A stretch of DNA of 32,000 nt from Candidatus Jordarchaeales archaeon (GCA_038858525.1 JAWCFL010000012.1:29492-61491); one strand, 5' to 3'. Positions 4,418-9,345 are shown, counted from the stretch's first letter. Numbers and translations are program-made. Notes: a model not told the origin generated them from the sequence alone.

Positions 4418-5296
4418 TTGCTTCCGCTTTTTGTTAACTTAGAGCAAGTTACGCAGGGTCTCTTTATGACTGTCGTCATATGGATACTCCAGTATGGGTT
4501 TCTCGGTTTCTATGCAGCGATGGTCATACAAGCAATAATAGCAATCATCCCGAGTGAACTCATACTCATGTTCGGGGGAATCGCATACTCGCTTATCTAT
4601 TGGCCTGTGAATATTGTTAAGGGGTTCGACTACGCTTTGCTCGTGACTGCTCTGGTTGGAGGGGTTGGTGAACTGACGGGGGCGGTCGCAGGCTTCTACA
4701 TAGCAAGGATCGTAGGTAGGCCGATCGTATCCAAGTGGGAGGAGAAGGCGATGCAGGCTCGTGATGGAAATCCGAACGCGAAGAAGCTTGGAAGAATTGA
4801 GAAGGCGATCTTTTTGAGTCTGGGTGACGCCATTTTGATCGCGGATAACTGGCTTGAAAAATGGGGGGCTATTGCCGTCCTGTTAGCTCGACTAGCTCCG
4901 CCAATACCTTTCGACGCCGTGTCTTACGGGTCAGGGCTCACTAAGATAAAGTTTAAGCCATTTATCGCCGCCACAACAGTTGGGGCGTTTCCAAGGGCTC
5001 TCATGTACGCTTACATAGGAAAAAGGACTTACGAAAGCTTTGTGTTAATCCCTCAAGCACTCAGAACACTGTTCTTCCTCACCGACAATCCTGTAGCCCA
5101 AATGCTCATATACAACTACTTGGCGGGCAACCCGATCATGAGCAACCCCTACACAATATTCTTCGCTGTGGCAGCAGCGATACTCGCCTCGCTCTACATA
5201 TCTTACGAGGTCATAAAGAGAACCCAACTTAGGGGGCACCGGGCAAGAGGGCTAGACGAGCCTTGCTCAAAAACTGGAGAGGAAAGCGTAAAGTGA
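4418..5296 (+). CDS. VTT/DedA-superfamily membrane protein (TVP38/TMEM64/TMEM41-like)
   Basis: Hydrophobic helices with IPSE and ARLAPPIPFDAVSYGSGL motifs. Confidence 0.8.
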   Translation: MLPLFVNLEQVTQGLFMTVVIWILQYGFLGFYAAMVIQAIIAIIPSELILMFGGIAYSLIYWPVNIVKGFDYALLVTALVGGVGELTGAVAGFYIARIVGRPIVSKWEEKAMQARDGNPNAKKLGRIEKAIFLSLGDAILIADNWLEKWGAIAVLLARLAPPIPFDAVSYGSGLTKIKFKPFIAATTVGAFPRALMYAYIGKRTYESFVLIPQALRTLFFLTDNPVAQMLIYNYLAGNPIMSNPYTIFFAVAAAILASLYISYEVIKRTQLRGHRARGLDEPCSKTGEESVK

Positions 5297-5374
5297 GATG
5301 AGCGTCAGAGACCTGCTCGCCGAGTAGTGTTTTTAGGGGGAGAGGTTCTCCTTTATTTTTTGGGCGTGGTTGCC

Positions 5375-6856
5375 GTGGCGAAGTGGCCTTACTTTGCAGG
5401 GGACTACGTGGTTGGAAGGGAGGAAGCTGCCTTCGCCGTGGTAACATGTGGCTCACATGACCTTCCTGAAAAGGTGGTTGCGCTGGCGGCTGACCTTGTA
5501 GCCATAGCGGGATCATGTGAGACCGAGAACGACGGCGTCGCCAGAGTGATCCAAAACATAGTTTCCAACAGCAACATACGATTTCTCGTCGTCTGCGGGG
5601 AGGAGGTTGTAGGGCACGCTCCGGGACAAACCATAGTGTCCCTCCACGAGAACGGCATAGGGCCAGACTACAAGGTTATTGGAAGCGAGGGCACAATACC
5701 CGTCCTGCACCCGAAGTACTTCAAGGTAGGGGACCCTTACACGGTCGTCGAGCGTTTCAGGAAGCAAGTTGAGTTAGTTGATCTCCGCGGAGAAAAAAAC
5801 CCGGACAGCATTGCGGCAAAGATACGCTCACTCGCAACCAAACGGGTCGAGAAATATTCTGAGCCGCCACTTCTCCCGCTTCCGGAAGAGGAAAAATATG
5901 ACTGGGCTACGGCACTTAGGCGCATCGAAGAGAAAGGCTGGCTGAGGGAGAGAGAAGTTGAGCCTGTGAGCTCTCTGTTCTACAGGAGGGAGTTGATGGT
6001 TTATGACGTCGCAGGAGTTAAGCTTGGGGGGCAGCGGGGAGAGTACTCCACTGTTCTGGCCGGGACGATCTTCTACAGGAAGGAGCCCATAGTCAGGGAC
6101 CCTATTAAGGGGATTTTCGATGAGAAGGCCGCTGAAGAGCTAATAGTGAGGCAGACGGAGCTTTCGGACGAGTACTGTGTGCCCTCGATGGTGCATGTGG
6201 TGGGCGAGACTGGGGAGGCTCTCTCAAACTATATGCTTTTCGTGGCGGACGTGACGGACGCACCAATAATAATAGATTCAACTAGTCTTGAAGCCCGCGT
6301 CGAAGCTATGATGATCGCGAAGGAGGTCGGACTGGAGCACAAAACAATATACAACTCGGTGTTAAGTGCTGAAGAGAGGGAGCTTGAAGCTTTGCGTGAC
6401 GTAGCGCCGATAGAGCACGCCATAATACTGTCTTATGGTTTCACGCTGGATGAGAGACTAAAAAAGGCGGATCTCATACTGTCCAGCGTTCGGGGGGTCG
6501 TAGAGAAGGCGATCCTGGACCCGGGGGTCCCCATACTCGGCGAGGGCGGATTGGAGGCGCTTCACTCCGCCTGGACTATGAAGAAGCTTTACGGCTACCC
6601 CACTGCTATAGGAATACACAACATGCTCGCAGGCGTTCACCACGAGTTGAGACGAAAAATGGACTTCTCCTTCATATACGCTCTTCCCTCACTGTATGGC
6701 GTCGACCTCAACCTCTATGGTCCGATGAAGAACGCGCCCAGAATTTTCCCCCTGGTTGCCGCCGCTGAAGCTGCAGTGGCGGATGAGTTACACAGCGTTC
6801 TCGGAGTCCATCCTAGGCCAACCCACCCATACTATAAAGTGAGGGAGACGAAATGA
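5375..6856 (+). CDS. mtrAH: MtrA-MtrH fusion: corrinoid-binding MtrA domain plus methyl-pterin methyltransferase MtrH domain
   Basis: N-terminal WPYFAGDY..CGSH..TENDG..SNIRFLVVCGEEVVGHAPGQ (MtrA, His at 5615-5617); C-terminal GGQRGEYSTVLAGTIFY..IIDST (MtrH). The track starts at 5327; GTG 5375 is preferred by homology. Confidence 0.85.
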   Translation: MAKWPYFAGDYVVGREEAAFAVVTCGSHDLPEKVVALAADLVAIAGSCETENDGVARVIQNIVSNSNIRFLVVCGEEVVGHAPGQTIVSLHENGIGPDYKVIGSEGTIPVLHPKYFKVGDPYTVVERFRKQVELVDLRGEKNPDSIAAKIRSLATKRVEKYSEPPLLPLPEEEKYDWATALRRIEEKGWLREREVEPVSSLFYRRELMVYDVAGVKLGGQRGEYSTVLAGTIFYRKEPIVRDPIKGIFDEKAAEELIVRQTELSDEYCVPSMVHVVGETGEALSNYMLFVADVTDAPIIIDSTSLEARVEAMMIAKEVGLEHKTIYNSVLSAEERELEALRDVAPIEHAIILSYGFTLDERLKKADLILSSVRGVVEKAILDPGVPILGEGGLEALHSAWTMKKLYGYPTAIGIHNMLAGVHHELRRKMDFSFIYALPSLYGVDLNLYGPMKNAPRIFPLVAAAEAAVADELHSVLGVHPRPTHPYYKVRETK

Positions 6857-8037
6857 AGCCATACGGCCCATACCTTATAAGGGCGTGTCACGTTGACGCA
6901 GCCTGGAGGCAGGCTAACAGGCTTATCCTCGAGAAAGGCATACCAGTAACCACAGAGGACAGGAACCAGGAAACCCTTGAAACAATAGGATGCATAATAC
7001 ACCTGACAGACTGGAGGAGCGGACCCATACTCCCCCGCGGATACATAGGAATGGATGAAGCAACCCTCAAGGGGAGTTACATACCCCAGTACTTAGCTTC
7101 GGATAAGGGTACACACACGTACACCTACGGGTGGTGCGCTAGGAAAAGGTTTGGTGTCAACCAGGTTGAAGAGGCAGGGAAAGCCCTAAGAAAAAGCAAT
7201 ACTGCTATAATACAGTTCTGGAACCCGGCATCAGATACGTTAAACCAGAACCCGCCATGCATAAGCATGATAGTTCTCCACAGAACAGGAGACCACGTCA
7301 ACGCCGTAGTATACCTCAGAAGCAACGACATGGCTAGGGCATGGCCCGAGGACGTGGCTGGAATAAACATCGTGTTCCTCACCGAGGCTGCTTCATACCT
7401 CAAGGGCGTAGAATCCATAGGGACGACGACAACGATATCCGCGTCAGCCCACATATACCGAACTTCCGAGGAGGAGCTGAGGGAGACGCTAAGCCAAACA
7501 ATGACCCCGACGGTGAGAAGGCGGAGAGAACCGGAGCGCAGGGCGACCGGAGGACCAATAATGATTGAAGCTACAACAATAAGGGAAGCGGTGGAGAAAA
7601 CAAGGAAGGTGGCTGAAAGGCACGCTGAGCCATTATACCCCATCCTGAAAATCCGCAGGCCCGAAGTGTTCGAGCCAGACCACGAACTAATAGACAAGCT
7701 GGAGGGCTACAATGGAGAGACGGACCAGGGGGAGAAGAAAACGGTAAATCAGCTCAACTACGCTGCTGAAAAGGTAGCTAAAACCCCCCAAAGCAGAAGA
7801 ATAGTAGTAACACCGTGTAACCCGAAAAGGGGGCACCAGAACCCACTACTTATACAGTTCCTCCCAAGGCAGGAAAACCACACAATAGCATTCTACGCAA
7901 ACATCAACATAAACGAGATAATCCAGGAAGCAGCAAAAACAGCGGAAATACAAAGAATAGTCTCAGAAAAAGCTAAAATTAAACCAGGACAACTAATAGT
8001 CATCATAACTCCGCTAAACACTGAAAGCTGTAGCTAA
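6853..8037 (+). CDS. Thymidylate synthase-superfamily protein with a duplicated TS domain
   Basis: Domain 1 has YTYG, PPC, RSND and SAHIY; domain 2 has NQL..SRRIVV. Overlaps the upstream stop (ATGA). Confidence 0.82.
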   Translation: MKPYGPYLIRACHVDAAWRQANRLILEKGIPVTTEDRNQETLETIGCIIHLTDWRSGPILPRGYIGMDEATLKGSYIPQYLASDKGTHTYTYGWCARKRFGVNQVEEAGKALRKSNTAIIQFWNPASDTLNQNPPCISMIVLHRTGDHVNAVVYLRSNDMARAWPEDVAGINIVFLTEAASYLKGVESIGTTTTISASAHIYRTSEEELRETLSQTMTPTVRRRREPERRATGGPIMIEATTIREAVEKTRKVAERHAEPLYPILKIRRPEVFEPDHELIDKLEGYNGETDQGEKKTVNQLNYAAEKVAKTPQSRRIVVTPCNPKRGHQNPLLIQFLPRQENHTIAFYANININEIIQEAAKTAEIQRIVSEKAKIKPGQLIVIITPLNTESCS

Positions 8038-8335
8038 AACCAAAAGCAACAAATCACCCGCACGCAAATTCTCCATAATCAATCTCTCCAGAAGCAGGCA
8101 TCTTACTCCCTTGAAAAAGCCGCTTGAAACATGAAAACTGAAAACTGGTTACCTTTCTTCCAGCATACAATGGAGAACGAAATCGACATTGGAACTCTGC
8201 TCCCTACTGAATTTAGCTAAACTATTTTAACTTCTTCGAGAAGACATTTAACGAAAACTGGGGTGAAAGAAAAATAAGTTTAAATATGAAGTGAAAGAAA
8301 GAAGAAGGAGAAGGACTAATGGGGAGGATGTGATT

Positions 8336-8494
8336 ATGAGTGAAGTAACGCCTTCACGTGTAAAATGCCCCAAGTGCGGTAGTATTGATGTAAAACAGAC
8401 TGAAGATAAAAGCAAAGTGCTCAGCTATGCTGGAGGGCAACCGATCTACAAGAAAATCTGGAAATGCAAGAAGTGCGGAGAGACGTGGGGATAA
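8336..8494 (+). CDS. Small zinc-ribbon protein (52 aa)
   Basis: CPKCG...CKKCG; ATG 8336 follows GGAGGATGTGA. Confidence 0.7.
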   Translation: MSEVTPSRVKCPKCGSIDVKQTEDKSKVLSYAGGQPIYKKIWKCKKCGETWG

Positions 8495-8628
8495 AACCAA
8501 CCACTAAGTGATTCAGGCTGATGAGCGTGCCTAGCGAATATCTGTTTTTTCTCTACTTATCTTTATCAAACAATAACAGTTTCTTCGTATGGTATATTTA
8601 CTCATTTGTTAATCCATATCTCTCATAT

Positions 8629-9345
8629 ATGTTTGACCCAGCCTACCTGTTTTGGGACATGTTAATGTTATGGATGAATCCTCTTGCTTGGGGTATGTTT
8701 TGTTTTTCAAATTTTTTTCCAGGCGGGGATCTAGGTGTTTACTTCGCGGTGTTTCTCGTTAGCATTTTCGGCAACTTATCCGTAATTTTCCCGGTACCAT
8801 ACGTAATTTTTCTTTGGTTTCTGGTTATTTTTAGAGTTTGGATTAATCCTCTGCTTTTAGGAATTGCAGCCGGCAGTGGAGCAGCTATAGGTGAGACCTC
8901 TGCCTGGCTTCTCGGGAGAGGGGCGGCTGAAGCGCTGGAGGACACGCAGTATGGTCAGCGGCTTAAGCGCTACGGGAGTCTCATAGAGCGGGGGTGGGGG
9001 ATCCCGCTAATCATTATATTTGCGGCATTGCCTTTGCCCGACGACGTCCTTCTTTTAGCTCTAGGGGCGCTTAAGTATTCCTATAAGAAAACAATTATAG
9101 CTTGCTTTACAGGAAAAATCATAATGTGTGTCGCAATATCTTTTGCTGCACGAGCATTTTCAACAACAAGAATATTCGGGAAAACTATCCTTGAGTGGTA
9201 CTCCGGGGAAGCGGGATTAACCACGATGCTTACCAGCATCGCCTTAATGATCCTAGTTTTCATAGCTCTGTTGTTCATTGATTGGGGTAAACTCTACCGA
9301 AAACTAAAAGAACTCATAAATAGCATTTCAAAGGTGTTCCCCTAA
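8629..9345 (+). CDS. VTT/DedA-superfamily membrane protein (YqaA/VMP1-like)
   Basis: FPVPY, GAAIGETSAWLLGR, PLPDD. The track starts at 8521, but that segment looks like AT-rich promoter DNA. Confidence 0.7.
   Translation: MFDPAYLFWDMLMLWMNPLAWGMFCFSNFFPGGDLGVYFAVFLVSIFGNLSVIFPVPYVIFLWFLVIFRVWINPLLLGIAAGSGAAIGETSAWLLGRGAAEALEDTQYGQRLKRYGSLIERGWGIPLIIIFAALPLPDDVLLLALGALKYSYKKTIIACFTGKIIMCVAISFAARAFSTTRIFGKTILEWYSGEAGLTTMLTSIALMILVFIALLFIDWGKLYRKLKELINSISKVFP

What the first reader, a model, noticed from the sequence alone, without database searches (positions are those of the whole stretch)
6853..7460. Thymidylate synthase-like enzyme with Asp at the uracil/cytosine specificity position
Seen: domain 1 reads RSNDMARAWPED, with Asp at 7351-7353. 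This aligns residue for residue with E. coli ThyA R166-SCDVFLGLPF-N177. Established: Asn177 selects dUMP, N177D converts ThyA into a dCMP methylase, and T4 dCMP hydroxymethylase has Asp there (RSNDVVFGFRND). The catalytic Cys (PPC, 7258-7260) and the HIY motif are intact. Inference: this chromosomal archaeal enzyme probably modifies C5 of a cytosine nucleotide (dCMP or CMP methylation or hydroxymethylation) rather than making dTMP from dUMP.
Basis: partly seen in the sequence, partly recalled or inferred. Interest (0 to 1): 0.85.

Follow-up and report, generated by a model that had tools for sequence, protein, structure and literature searches.

The report
Asgard single-chain thymidylate synthase with Asp
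This Asgard archaeon's only thymidylate-synthase gene encodes an unusual two-domain enzyme that carries the residue phages use to act on cytosine rather than uracil, and it always follows a vitamin-B12-type methyl-carrier gene, so the cell may make its DNA thymine in a way not yet described.

Summary
ORF 6853-8037 (394 aa) has Cys136 (7258-7260), R156-S-N-D159, H200-I-Y202 and Asp167 (7351-7353). Asp167 aligns without gaps to E. coli ThyA Asn177, T4 gp42 Asp179 and the Asp of the phage Xp12 enzyme.

The Asp is specific to this clade. All 36 relatives with this two-domain form have Asp. All 145 Asn-type relatives, single-domain or MtrA-fused, have Asn.

The protein is a single-chain pseudo-dimer. 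Domain 2 has the TS fold but lacks the Cys and the RSxD motif. It keeps the Ser-Arg-Arg motif that domain 1 has lost.

The gene overlaps (ATGA) an upstream MtrA-MtrH fusion gene. That pair was the only conserved neighbourhood in 9 of 9 loci from three Asgard families.

Of 301 sampled Asgard genomes, 18 carry this form and none of the 18 has ThyX. Three are closed genomes whose only PF00303 match is this gene. dCTP deaminase-family genes are present in all six genomes checked. FolA and TK1 were not found, and a CDA-type deaminase was found in only 2 of 6.

Most likely this is the cell's thymidylate-forming enzyme, working with MtrAH. Whether it uses dUMP or dCMP is unresolved.

The scan has already noted the MtrAH-TS module on other Asgard DNA.

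The parts
5327..6856 (+). MtrA-MtrH fusion gene (P0002, 509 aa as the ORF reads). The real start is probably near 5375, because homologues begin about 5 residues before the conserved KWP.
   Evidence: Pfam MtrA 2.3e-43 (residues 18-183) and MtrH 1.1e-61 (residues 221-487). NCBIfam mtrA and mtrH hits are below the equivalog cut-offs. 29 fusion homologues found in Frey-, Jord-, Atabey- and Loki-labelled Asgard.
5378..5875 (+). MtrA-like corrinoid-binding domain
   Evidence: phmmer match to solved MtrA chains 5LAA, 8Q3V and 5L8X, E 1e-32 to 1e-34. The alignment includes the CGxEVxGH stretch. That this His is the cobalt ligand is from my own knowledge, not tested here.
5987..6787 (+). MtrH-like pterin-binding methyltransferase domain
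   Evidence: PF02007 209 bits. It also hits MtgA-type methyl-corrinoid:pterin methyltransferase models.
6853..6856 (+). ATGA overlap: the TS start codon overlaps the mtrAH stop codon, with GAGGGAG just upstream
   Evidence: Read from the sequence. MtrAH lies directly upstream on the same strand, abutting or overlapping, in 8 of 8 fetched relatives.
6853..8037 (+). Single-chain two-domain thymidylate-synthase-family gene (P0001, 394 aa)
   Evidence: PF00303 48.6 bits against a cut-off of 24.3. AF2 model pLDDT 90.1, pTM 0.91. PDB fold matches are MilA and thymidylate synthases.
6853..7497 (+). Domain 1 (residues 1-215): the catalytic TS domain. It lacks the Arg-Arg pair and reads ALRKSNTAIIQFWNP there.
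7258..7260 (+). Catalytic Cys136 (PPC)
   Evidence: Invariant in alignment A1. Falls in the E. coli Cys146 column.
7318..7329 (+). R156-S157-N158-D159, equivalent to E. coli R166-S-C-D169
7348..7353 (+). Glu166-Asp167. Asp167 is at the E. coli Asn177 position. The residue before it is acidic in 36 of 36 members of the clade.
7450..7458 (+). H200-I-Y202, equivalent to E. coli H207 and Y209
7516..7545 (+). Flexible linker, residues 222-231
   Evidence: pLDDT below 50 in the model
7552..8034 (+). Domain 2 (about residues 234-394): a reduced TS fold without the Cys (NPL where domain 1 has PPC) and without RSxD
   Evidence: Folded alone: pLDDT 88.5. The top 24 PDB matches are thymidylate synthases, and one designed protein appears among the top 50; best E 9e-7, 115-120 aligned columns, rmsd 2.3-3.4 A. 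hhalign register.
7792..7800 (+). S314-R315-R316 of domain 2, equivalent to E. coli S125-R126-R127, the pair that in homodimers reaches into the partner's active site
   Evidence: Invariant in A1 and A3. Motif TPQSRRIVVTPCNP against E. coli DPDSRRIIVSAWN.

Best explanation
The gene encodes the cell's thymidylate-forming enzyme, in a form not yet described.

It is one chain that mimics a TS dimer. Domain 1 supplies the Cys136 nucleophile, the phosphate and base-binding residues R156, S157 and D159, and the sugar-binding H200 and Y202. Domain 2 is catalytically dead and supplies the R315-R316 pair. That gives one complete active site per chain.

It works as a two-gene module with the MtrA-MtrH protein encoded just upstream and translationally coupled to it. 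These lineages run the H4MPT form of the Wood-Ljungdahl pathway. My inference is that MtrH moves the methyl group of methyl-H4MPT onto the MtrA corrinoid, and that C5 of the Cys-activated pyrimidine takes it from there. This would avoid making a dihydropterin, and no FolA-type reductase was found to recycle one.

The nucleotide is more likely dUMP than dCMP. The cells keep dCTP deaminase-family genes and mostly lack a dCMP-type deaminase. In that case Asp167, always preceded by another acidic residue, would act in protonated form as a stand-in for Asn.

Shown: the anatomy, the clade-specific Asp, the conserved operon, and the status as sole TS homologue. Inferred: the methyl relay, the substrate, and the protonation state.
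For: - Sole TS candidate: this is the only PF00303 match in a 92.7%-complete genome, with no ThyX.
- 18 of 301 sampled Asgard genomes carry the two-domain form. None of the 18 has ThyX, against 139 of the other 283. The closed genomes G028, G012 and G023 each have a single PF00303 match.
- TK1 not found in 0 of 5 genomes. FolA not found in 0 of 5.
- dCTP deaminase-family matches in the own genome and in 5 of 5 other carriers, above the curated cut-off in 4 of those 5.
- CDA-type deaminase absent from the own genome and from 3 of 5 other carriers.
- A Dcd-family enzyme tested in vitro does not take 5-methyl-dCTP (PMC10742078).
- Sister Asgard families fill the same sole-TS role with Asn-type enzymes.
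- Pseudo-dimer.
- Module: the ATGA overlap; MtrAH directly upstream in 8 of 8 relatives; it is the only gene pair conserved across 9 loci from 3 families.
- MtrA domains are fused to Asn-type TS in many other lineages. Asgard genomes G059 and G084 have such a fusion and no ThyX.
- The MtrA domain closely matches solved MtrA, including the GH stretch.
- Carriers use the H4MPT Wood-Ljungdahl pathway, and the methyl acceptor of their MtrAH fusion is reported as unknown (PMC11291895).
Against: - Every natural TS homologue with Asp at this position cited in the papers I read acts on a cytosine nucleotide: T4 gp42, MilA, RB69 gp48 and DLP3 gp80 (PMC13326640). Mutating Asn to Asp in ThyA switches its preference to dCMP (PMC8670742). 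The phage Xp12 homologue also has Asp.
- The Asp has been kept in 36 of 36 members, although a single transition would restore Asn. That argues it is needed for something the Asn-type enzymes do not do.
- Two of the four other Asp-bearing relatives were traced, and both are on virus-like contigs.
- D159, the pterin-contacting Asp of classical TS, is retained. The pterin may therefore still bind the TS domain directly, which would fit ordinary methylene chemistry.
- No published work on a corrinoid-dependent TS was found.
- dNK-like kinase matches in 4 of 5 genomes leave some room for salvage.
- The own genome is a draft, so absences are 'not found'.
Confidence: 0.4

Rival explanations
1. Cytosine-first thymidylate route. 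The enzyme methylates dCMP, as the Asp predicts, to give 5-methyl-dCMP. This is then deaminated to dTMP, either by a separate deaminase or on the enzyme itself while the base is in the fast-deaminating 5,6-dihydro covalent state.
For: Asp167 is invariant in the clade while the 145 Asn-type relatives have Asn. Asp is the known cytosine determinant. The two traced Asp-bearing relatives outside the clade are viral. The enzyme is still the sole TS homologue, so its product must end up as thymidylate. Earlier notes of this scan propose the same detour for Asp-type TS in Patescibacteria (these are leads, not evidence).
Against: No CDA-type deaminase was found in the own genome, in G006, or in the closed genomes G012 and G023. 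None is linked to the module. Dcd-family genes are present, but the one tested family member does not accept 5-methyl-dCTP. Keeping dCTP deaminase suggests dUMP is made on purpose. No dCTPase or dCMP-supplying gene lies in the module.
Confidence: 0.22
2. The enzyme methylates or hydroxymethylates C5 of a cytosine nucleotide (dCMP or CMP) for DNA, RNA or a metabolite, and plays no part in dTMP supply.
For: Asp at the specificity position. The best Foldseek match of the whole model is the CMP hydroxymethylase MilA, though barely ahead of ordinary TS. The position equivalent to E. coli L143, which is linked to methyl versus hydroxymethyl products (PMC13326640), is Asn or Asp here rather than a bulky hydrophobic residue.
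Against: It would leave 18 of 18 carrier genomes, three of them closed, with no thymidylate synthase of either known family and no TK1. The module has no companion kinase, dCTPase, glycosyltransferase or antibiotic-pathway genes. Asn or Asp at the L143 position is also common in the Asn-type archaeal enzymes and in the Xp12 homologue, so it does not discriminate.
Confidence: 0.13
3. Ordinary ThyA chemistry. The enzyme uses methylene-H4MPT directly on dUMP and releases dihydro-H4MPT. The Asp is a tolerated lineage quirk. MtrAH is co-expressed for another reason, for example balancing methyl- and methylene-H4MPT pools, and passes nothing to the TS.
For: The pterin-contacting D159 and the rest of the classical catalytic set are kept. 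Archaeal cell extracts make dTMP from dUMP with formaldehyde plus H4MPT-type carriers (as summarised in PMC9931769). Single-domain Asn-type TS of other Asgard families have no Mtr neighbour.
Against: The two genes are the only conserved pair across three families and are translationally coupled. The distribution of MtrAH fusion homologues mirrors that of the two-domain TS. MtrA-TS fusions recur elsewhere. No FolA was found to recycle a dihydropterin. A neutral quirk would not stay invariant in 36 of 36 sequences.
Confidence: 0.15

Closest known systems
Short archaeal (methanogen-type) thymidylate synthase ThyA (NCBIfam TIGR03283, PF00303)
   Same: Best-scoring family for domain 1: TIGR03283 at 100 bits covering 2-197 of 201 profile positions. 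It shares the Cys, RSxD and HxY motifs and the W123, Y92-G93 and Q104 positions. It fills the same genomic role as sole TS in genomes without ThyX.
   Different: The score is below the equivalog cut-off of 174.55. It has Asp instead of the Asn found in the 145 Asn-type relatives. It is a two-domain single chain rather than a homodimer. Domain 1 has lost the Arg-Arg pair. There are 17 clade-specific near-invariant positions, including an acidic residue before the Asp and loss of the aromatic residue at position 161. It is obligately paired with MtrAH.
Phage deoxycytidylate C5-modifying TS homologues (T4 gp42 dCMP hydroxymethylase; the Xanthomonas phage Xp12 TS homologue) and MilA CMP hydroxymethylase
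   Same: Asp at the Asn177 position with identical motif spacing. MilA is the top Foldseek match.
   Different: Those are homodimers that keep their own Ser-Arg-Arg motif. They are viral or belong to antibiotic pathways, and they travel with deaminase, dCTPase, kinase or DHFR genes, as in the Xp12 locus. Here the gene is chromosomal, is the only TS, has no such companions, and branches inside the archaeal short-TS radiation rather than with the phage enzymes. That the Xp12 enzyme is a dCMP methylase is from my own knowledge.
MtrA-TS-DUF4346 three-domain proteins of DPANN archaea, CPR bacteria and some Asgard
   Same: They physically link an MtrA-type domain to an archaeal-type TS. They occur in genomes without ThyX (G059 and G084).
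   Different: They have Asn at the specificity position, a single TS domain, no MtrH, and the domains fused in one chain rather than split over two genes.
MtrA and MtrH of the methyl-H4MPT:coenzyme M methyltransferase complex, and MtgA-type corrinoid methyltransferases
   Same: The upstream gene has both domains with strong Pfam matches, and its MtrA domain closely matches solved MtrA.
   Different: The two domains are fused in one soluble chain. The membrane subunits and MtrE are reported missing in these lineages, and the methyl acceptor is reported as unknown (PMC11291895). Here the conserved partner is a TS-fold enzyme.

Membership tests
Thymidylate synthase superfamily (PF00303 fold) | Profile match above the curated cut-off | tested here: met
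   48.6 bits against 24.3; domain 1 alone scores 33.5.
Thymidylate synthase superfamily (PF00303 fold) | Catalytic Cys after Pro, the R-S-x-D motif and the H-x-Y motif | tested here: met
   C136, R156-S157-N158-D159 and H200-I-Y202 are invariant in the clade and fall in the E. coli columns.
Thymidylate synthase superfamily (PF00303 fold) | TS fold | tested here: met
   Whole model: MilA and TS chains, E about 1e-11. Domain 2 alone: nearly all TS chains, E about 1e-6.
dUMP-methylating ThyA (EC 2.1.1.45) | Asn at the E. coli 177 position (uracil O4/N3 recognition) | tested here: not met
   Asp167.
dUMP-methylating ThyA (EC 2.1.1.45) | Equivalog-level match to a curated thymidylate synthase model | tested here: not met
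   TIGR03283 scores 100 bits against a cut-off of 174.55. All other TS equivalogs score far below their cut-offs.
dUMP-methylating ThyA (EC 2.1.1.45) | Homodimer in which each subunit gives an Arg-Arg pair to the other's site | tested here: not met
   Domain 1 lacks the pair. Only domain 2 has S314-R315-R316. The two are joined in one chain, with a confident two-domain model at pTM 0.91. Whether R315 and R316 reach Cys136 could not be measured because no coordinates were available.
dUMP-methylating ThyA (EC 2.1.1.45) | Provides the cell's dTMP (no other synthase present) | tested here: met
   Genomic complementarity only: no ThyX and no second TS in 18 carrier genomes, three of them closed.
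dUMP-methylating ThyA (EC 2.1.1.45) | dUMP to dTMP activity with a methylene-pterin donor | not testable with these tools
   Needs an enzyme assay.
Cytosine-nucleotide C5 methylase or hydroxymethylase of the TS family (Xp12 type, T4 gp42, MilA) | Asp at the E. coli 177 position | tested here: met
   Role of the position as described in PMC8670742 and PMC13326640.
Cytosine-nucleotide C5 methylase or hydroxymethylase of the TS family (Xp12 type, T4 gp42, MilA) | Companion genes that use the product (deaminase, dCTPase, dNMP kinase, glycosyltransferase or antibiotic pathway), or a viral setting | tested here: not met
   Only MtrAH is conserved beside it. A CDA-type deaminase was found in 2 of 6 carrier genomes. 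The context is chromosomal housekeeping genes.
Cytosine-nucleotide C5 methylase or hydroxymethylase of the TS family (Xp12 type, T4 gp42, MilA) | Acidic residue at the E. coli L143 position (hydroxymethyl product) | tested here: inconclusive
   Asn in 22 and Asp in 14 of the clade. The Asn-type archaeal TS and the Xp12 homologue also have polar residues there.
Mtr-type corrinoid methyl relay (upstream gene) | MtrA corrinoid domain including the His-containing GH motif | tested here: met
   PF04208 148 bits. Alignment to 5LAA includes CGxEVxGH. H97 is invariant in alignment A2.
Mtr-type corrinoid methyl relay (upstream gene) | MtrH methyl-pterin:corrinoid methyltransferase domain | tested here: met
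   PF02007 209 bits, but below the NCBIfam equivalog cut-off (201 against 271).
Mtr-type corrinoid methyl relay (upstream gene) | Membrane subunits MtrB-G and coenzyme M as the acceptor | not tested
   Reported absent in Freyarchaeia and Atabeyarchaeia (PMC11291895). I did not search for them in this genome.

The most novel reading that the evidence does not exclude
Several Asgard lineages make thymidylate by a third route, neither ThyA-type nor ThyX-type. A soluble MtrA-MtrH protein loads a corrinoid with the methyl group of methyl-H4MPT. A single-chain TS pseudo-dimer then transfers that intact methyl group to C5 of a Cys-activated pyrimidine nucleotide, with no dihydropterin formed. The invariant Asp marks the changed chemistry. 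It could serve as the N3-protonating acid for a dCMP substrate that is then deaminated, or as a protonated O4 partner for dUMP.
Probability: 0.3. Interest if true: 0.9.

Novelty: new variant of a known kind. Interest (0 to 1): 0.72.

Why it matters
Thymidylate synthesis is essential and is thought to have only two enzymatic solutions, ThyA and ThyX. [quoted passage not shown]
- it has Asp where dUMP-specific enzymes have Asn;
- it is one asymmetric chain instead of a homodimer;
- it is obligately paired with a B12-type methyl-carrier protein.

Either outcome of an assay would be new. One outcome would be the first natural dUMP-methylating TS with Asp, which would show that the Asn/Asp rule used to annotate phage DNA-modification genes does not always hold. 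The other would be a cellular cytosine-first route to thymine.

It also offers a concrete candidate for the unknown methyl acceptor of the Asgard MtrAH fusion described in PMC11291895. The published survey of Asgard thymidylate synthases (PMC9931769) groups these genes under plain thyA.

Tried and rejected
- Complex prediction of the TS with the MtrA domain (residues 15-195 of P0002), each with its own alignment: no verdict, score 0.00. I do not use it either way.
- Foldseek ranking of the whole model puts MilA first (3.8e-12), but ordinary TS chains follow within one order of magnitude. This does not discriminate between substrates.
- hhalign of domain 2 against domain 1 was weak (E 0.018). 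I settled the question by folding domain 2 alone.
- I considered Dcd-family enzymes as possible 5-methyl-dCTP deaminases. The one tested member does not take that substrate. Dcd paralogue counts do not differ clearly between Asp-type and Asn-type genomes.
- Salvage: TK1 was not found. Weak dNK-like kinase matches remain and their specificity is unknown.
- Literature searches found nothing for TS with MtrA/MtrH, with DUF4346, or with corrinoid-dependent thymidylate synthesis.
- Nyce & White 1996 (PMC177745) is not held, so I cite it only through PMC9931769.
- I could not measure distances or pKa values in the models because no coordinates are returned.
- The E. coli L143 and H147 positions, which are diagnostic in phage enzymes, are polar or hydrophobic alike in Asp-type and Asn-type archaeal TS, so they give no information here.
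Full report
**1. The observation**

ORF 6853-8037 on the + strand encodes 394 residues.
- Cys136 is tgc at 7258-7260, inside NQNPPCIS.
- Asp167 is gac at 7351-7353, at the end of RSNDMARAWPED.
- H200-I-Y202 is at 7450-7458.

I did not rely on remembered sequences. I fetched E. coli thyA, T4 gene 42 and the TS homologue of the 5-methylcytosine phage Xp12 from public records and translated them. The motif reads RSCDVFLGLPFN in E. coli, RSNDVVFGFRND in T4 and RSSDLFVGLPYD in Xp12. All have the same gap-free spacing as here. phmmer against PDB chains and an hmmalign of 189 sequences both put Asp167 in the Asn177 column.

**2. The Asp is specific to this clade**

A full HMMER scan of 1.8 billion representative proteins with domain 1, together with a word-indexed search, gave 187 proteins.
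- All 36 proteins with the two-domain form have Asp. Their identity to the query goes down to 36%. They carry Jord-, Frey-, Njord- and Loki-archaeal labels.
- All 145 Asn-type relatives have Asn. These are the roughly 200-aa single-domain archaeal TS and the 450-500-aa MtrA-TS-DUF4346 fusions.
- In a FastTree of the catalytic domain, the 35 two-domain sequences included form one clade with support 1.0 and a long stem, nested among Asn-type sequences.

So one Asn-to-Asp change has been kept throughout, even though a single transition would reverse it.

Four other sequences have Asp. I traced two of them. One lies on a contig with HNH, family-A DNA polymerase and dUTPase genes. The other lies among many small ORFs with Dam and N4/N6 methylase genes. 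Both look viral.

The clade has 17 positions that are near-invariant within it and rare outside it. In addition, the residue before the Asp is acidic in 36 of 36 members, against 17 of 145 Asn-type sequences. The aromatic residue at position 161 (E. coli F171) is replaced by Ala or Gly.

**3. What the protein is**

It is a single-chain TS pseudo-dimer.
- Domain 1 (residues 1-215) holds the Cys, RSxD and HxY motifs. Where E. coli has DSRRIIVSAWN, it reads ALRKSNTAIIQFWNP.
- Domain 2 (about residues 234-394) has NPL where domain 1 has PPC, and has no RSxD. It keeps an invariant S314-R315-R316 inside TPQSRRIVVTPCNP.
- The whole chain folds with pLDDT 90.1 and pTM 0.91. The only disordered stretch is the linker at 222-231.
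- Domain 2 folded alone has pLDDT 88.5. Its PDB matches are almost all thymidylate synthases, with best E 9e-7.

In homodimeric TS the Arg-Arg pair of one subunit completes the phosphate site of the other. That is established knowledge about E. coli R126/R127. The complementary losses here imply one active site per chain. I could not measure this in the model.

**4. The partner gene**

The upstream ORF is 5327-6856, with a probable true start near 5375. It is a fusion of MtrA (2.3e-43) and MtrH (1.1e-61).
- Its MtrA part aligns to solved MtrA chains at E about 1e-34, including the CGxEVxGH stretch. H97 is invariant in 23 homologues.
- Its stop codon overlaps the TS start codon as ATGA.
- In eight loci fetched from three Asgard families, MtrAH sits directly upstream on the same strand. 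These include the closed genomes G028, G012 and G023.
- In an all-against-all comparison of nine loci, these two genes are the only conserved pair.
- The MtrAH homologues found (29 fusion clusters) carry the same lineage labels as the two-domain TS. Some sit on contigs of the same length, for example the 523,155-base and 2,756,679-base contigs.

PMC11291895 describes this 'novel fusion' in Atabeyarchaeia, Freyarchaeia and other Asgard. It states that the fate of the methyl group is uncertain and does not mention thymidylate. The same paper reports that these lineages run the H4MPT form of the Wood-Ljungdahl pathway.

**5. Why 'rather than making dTMP' does not hold**

| Gene family | Result |
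|---|---|
| PF00303 (TS) in own genome (92.7% complete) | this gene only |
| ThyX in own genome | not found |
| Two-domain TS in a 301-genome Asgard sample | 18 genomes (families f1, f2, f10, f13, f16) |
| ThyX in those 18 carriers | 0 of 18 |
| ThyX in the other sampled genomes | 139 of 283 |
| PF00303 in closed genomes G028, G012, G023 | one match each |
| TK1 | 0 of 5 |
| FolA | 0 of 5 |
| dCTP deaminase family | own genome and 5 of 5 other carriers |
| CDA-type (dCMP/cytidine) deaminase | 2 of 6 (own genome plus five others) |

The CDA-type deaminase is missing from two of the closed genomes. The one Dcd-family enzyme tested on 5-methyl-dCTP does not use it (PMC10742078).

Other Asgard families fill the same sole-TS role with Asn-type enzymes. 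By this complementarity, the gene lies on the route to thymidylate.

**6. Weighing the readings**

The Asp argues for cytosine. The natural Asp-bearing TS homologues cited in the papers I read act on cytosine nucleotides, and the Asn-to-Asp mutation switches ThyA to dCMP.

The genomic context argues for thymidylate supply from dUMP: Dcd is kept, no deaminase is linked, and no dCMP-supplying gene is present.

I therefore rank the readings as follows:
- 0.40: a dUMP-using, MtrAH-coupled thymidylate-forming enzyme in which the Glu/Asp-Asp pair keeps Asp167 protonated as a stand-in for Asn.
- 0.22: a cytosine-first route to dTMP.
- 0.15: ordinary methylene-H4MPT chemistry, with MtrAH only co-expressed.

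The methyl-relay idea rests on several points: the conserved and translationally coupled operon, recurrent MtrA-TS fusions elsewhere, an intact-looking corrinoid site, the absence of FolA, and the unknown acceptor of this MtrAH. It remains an inference. The retained pterin-contacting D159 speaks for direct pterin binding.

**7. Known or new**

PMC9931769 surveys Asgard thymidylate synthases and groups these genes under thyA. It does not mention a tandem architecture, fusion or Mtr linkage, and the sections I read say nothing about the Asp. No paper I could search links TS with MtrA/MtrH, DUF4346 or corrinoids.

Earlier AI notes of this scan had already flagged three related things:
- the MtrAH-TS module on another Asgard genome;
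- the pseudo-dimer;
- Asp-type TS with an adjacent deaminase in Patescibacteria.

I re-tested the module and the pseudo-dimer here. The contrast with the Patescibacteria case, where a deaminase is adjacent, is that no linked deaminase exists here.

The protein is a member of the TS superfamily. It fails three defining tests for a standard ThyA, and it fails the companion-gene test for a phage-type dCMP modifier. I class it as a new variant of a known kind.

Noticed in passing
window 4418-5296 and 8521-9345: Two VTT/DedA-family membrane protein genes (PF09335) lie on either side of the mtrAH-TS pair on the same strand. They are not conserved beside the pair in the eight relatives examined.
   Followed up: partly
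window 8291-8494: A 67-aa ORF with two CxxC pairs (CPKCG...CKKCG), resembling a zinc ribbon, lies between the TS gene and the second VTT gene. No function assigned.
   Followed up: no
window 5327-5375: The mechanical ORF of mtrAH starts at GTG 5327. Homologues begin about five residues before the conserved KWP, so the real start is probably a GTG near 5369-5375.
   Followed up: partly
L055:5951-7384 (G059) and L054:3847-5181 (G084): Two other Asgard families carry the Asn-type MtrA-TS-DUF4346 three-domain protein, and both genomes lack ThyX. The same architecture makes up most of the 450-500-aa hits of the representative search (P0044, P0045, P0069 and others).
   Followed up: partly
L056:1228-2625 and L057:4743-5477: Archaeal-type TS homologues with Asp at the specificity position lie on virus-like contigs. 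One has DUF932, HNH, family-A DNA polymerase and dUTPase genes. The other has Dam and N4/N6 methylase genes. They are candidate viral cytosine-modifying enzymes derived from the archaeal short TS.
   Followed up: partly
L047:6822-7868, L048:6236-7294, L049:6299-7318: A large Asgard family (f9, 62 of 68 genomes) has a 340-350-aa TS form in which a roughly 150-residue insertion separates the N-terminal and catalytic parts. It has no Mtr neighbour.
   Followed up: no
G038:C121:10322-10828 and G082:C536:2249-2659: Two draft genomes of family f2 show a second, short PF00303 match besides the two-domain gene. One has two in-frame TAG codons. The closed f2 genome G028 has none, so these may be contamination, a pseudogene or a mobile-element copy.
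   Followed up: no
G000:C3:33759-34310: A dNK-family (PF01712) kinase-like match at 48 bits is present in the own genome and in 3 of 4 other carriers. Its specificity is unknown, and it bears on whether thymidine salvage can be excluded.
   Followed up: no
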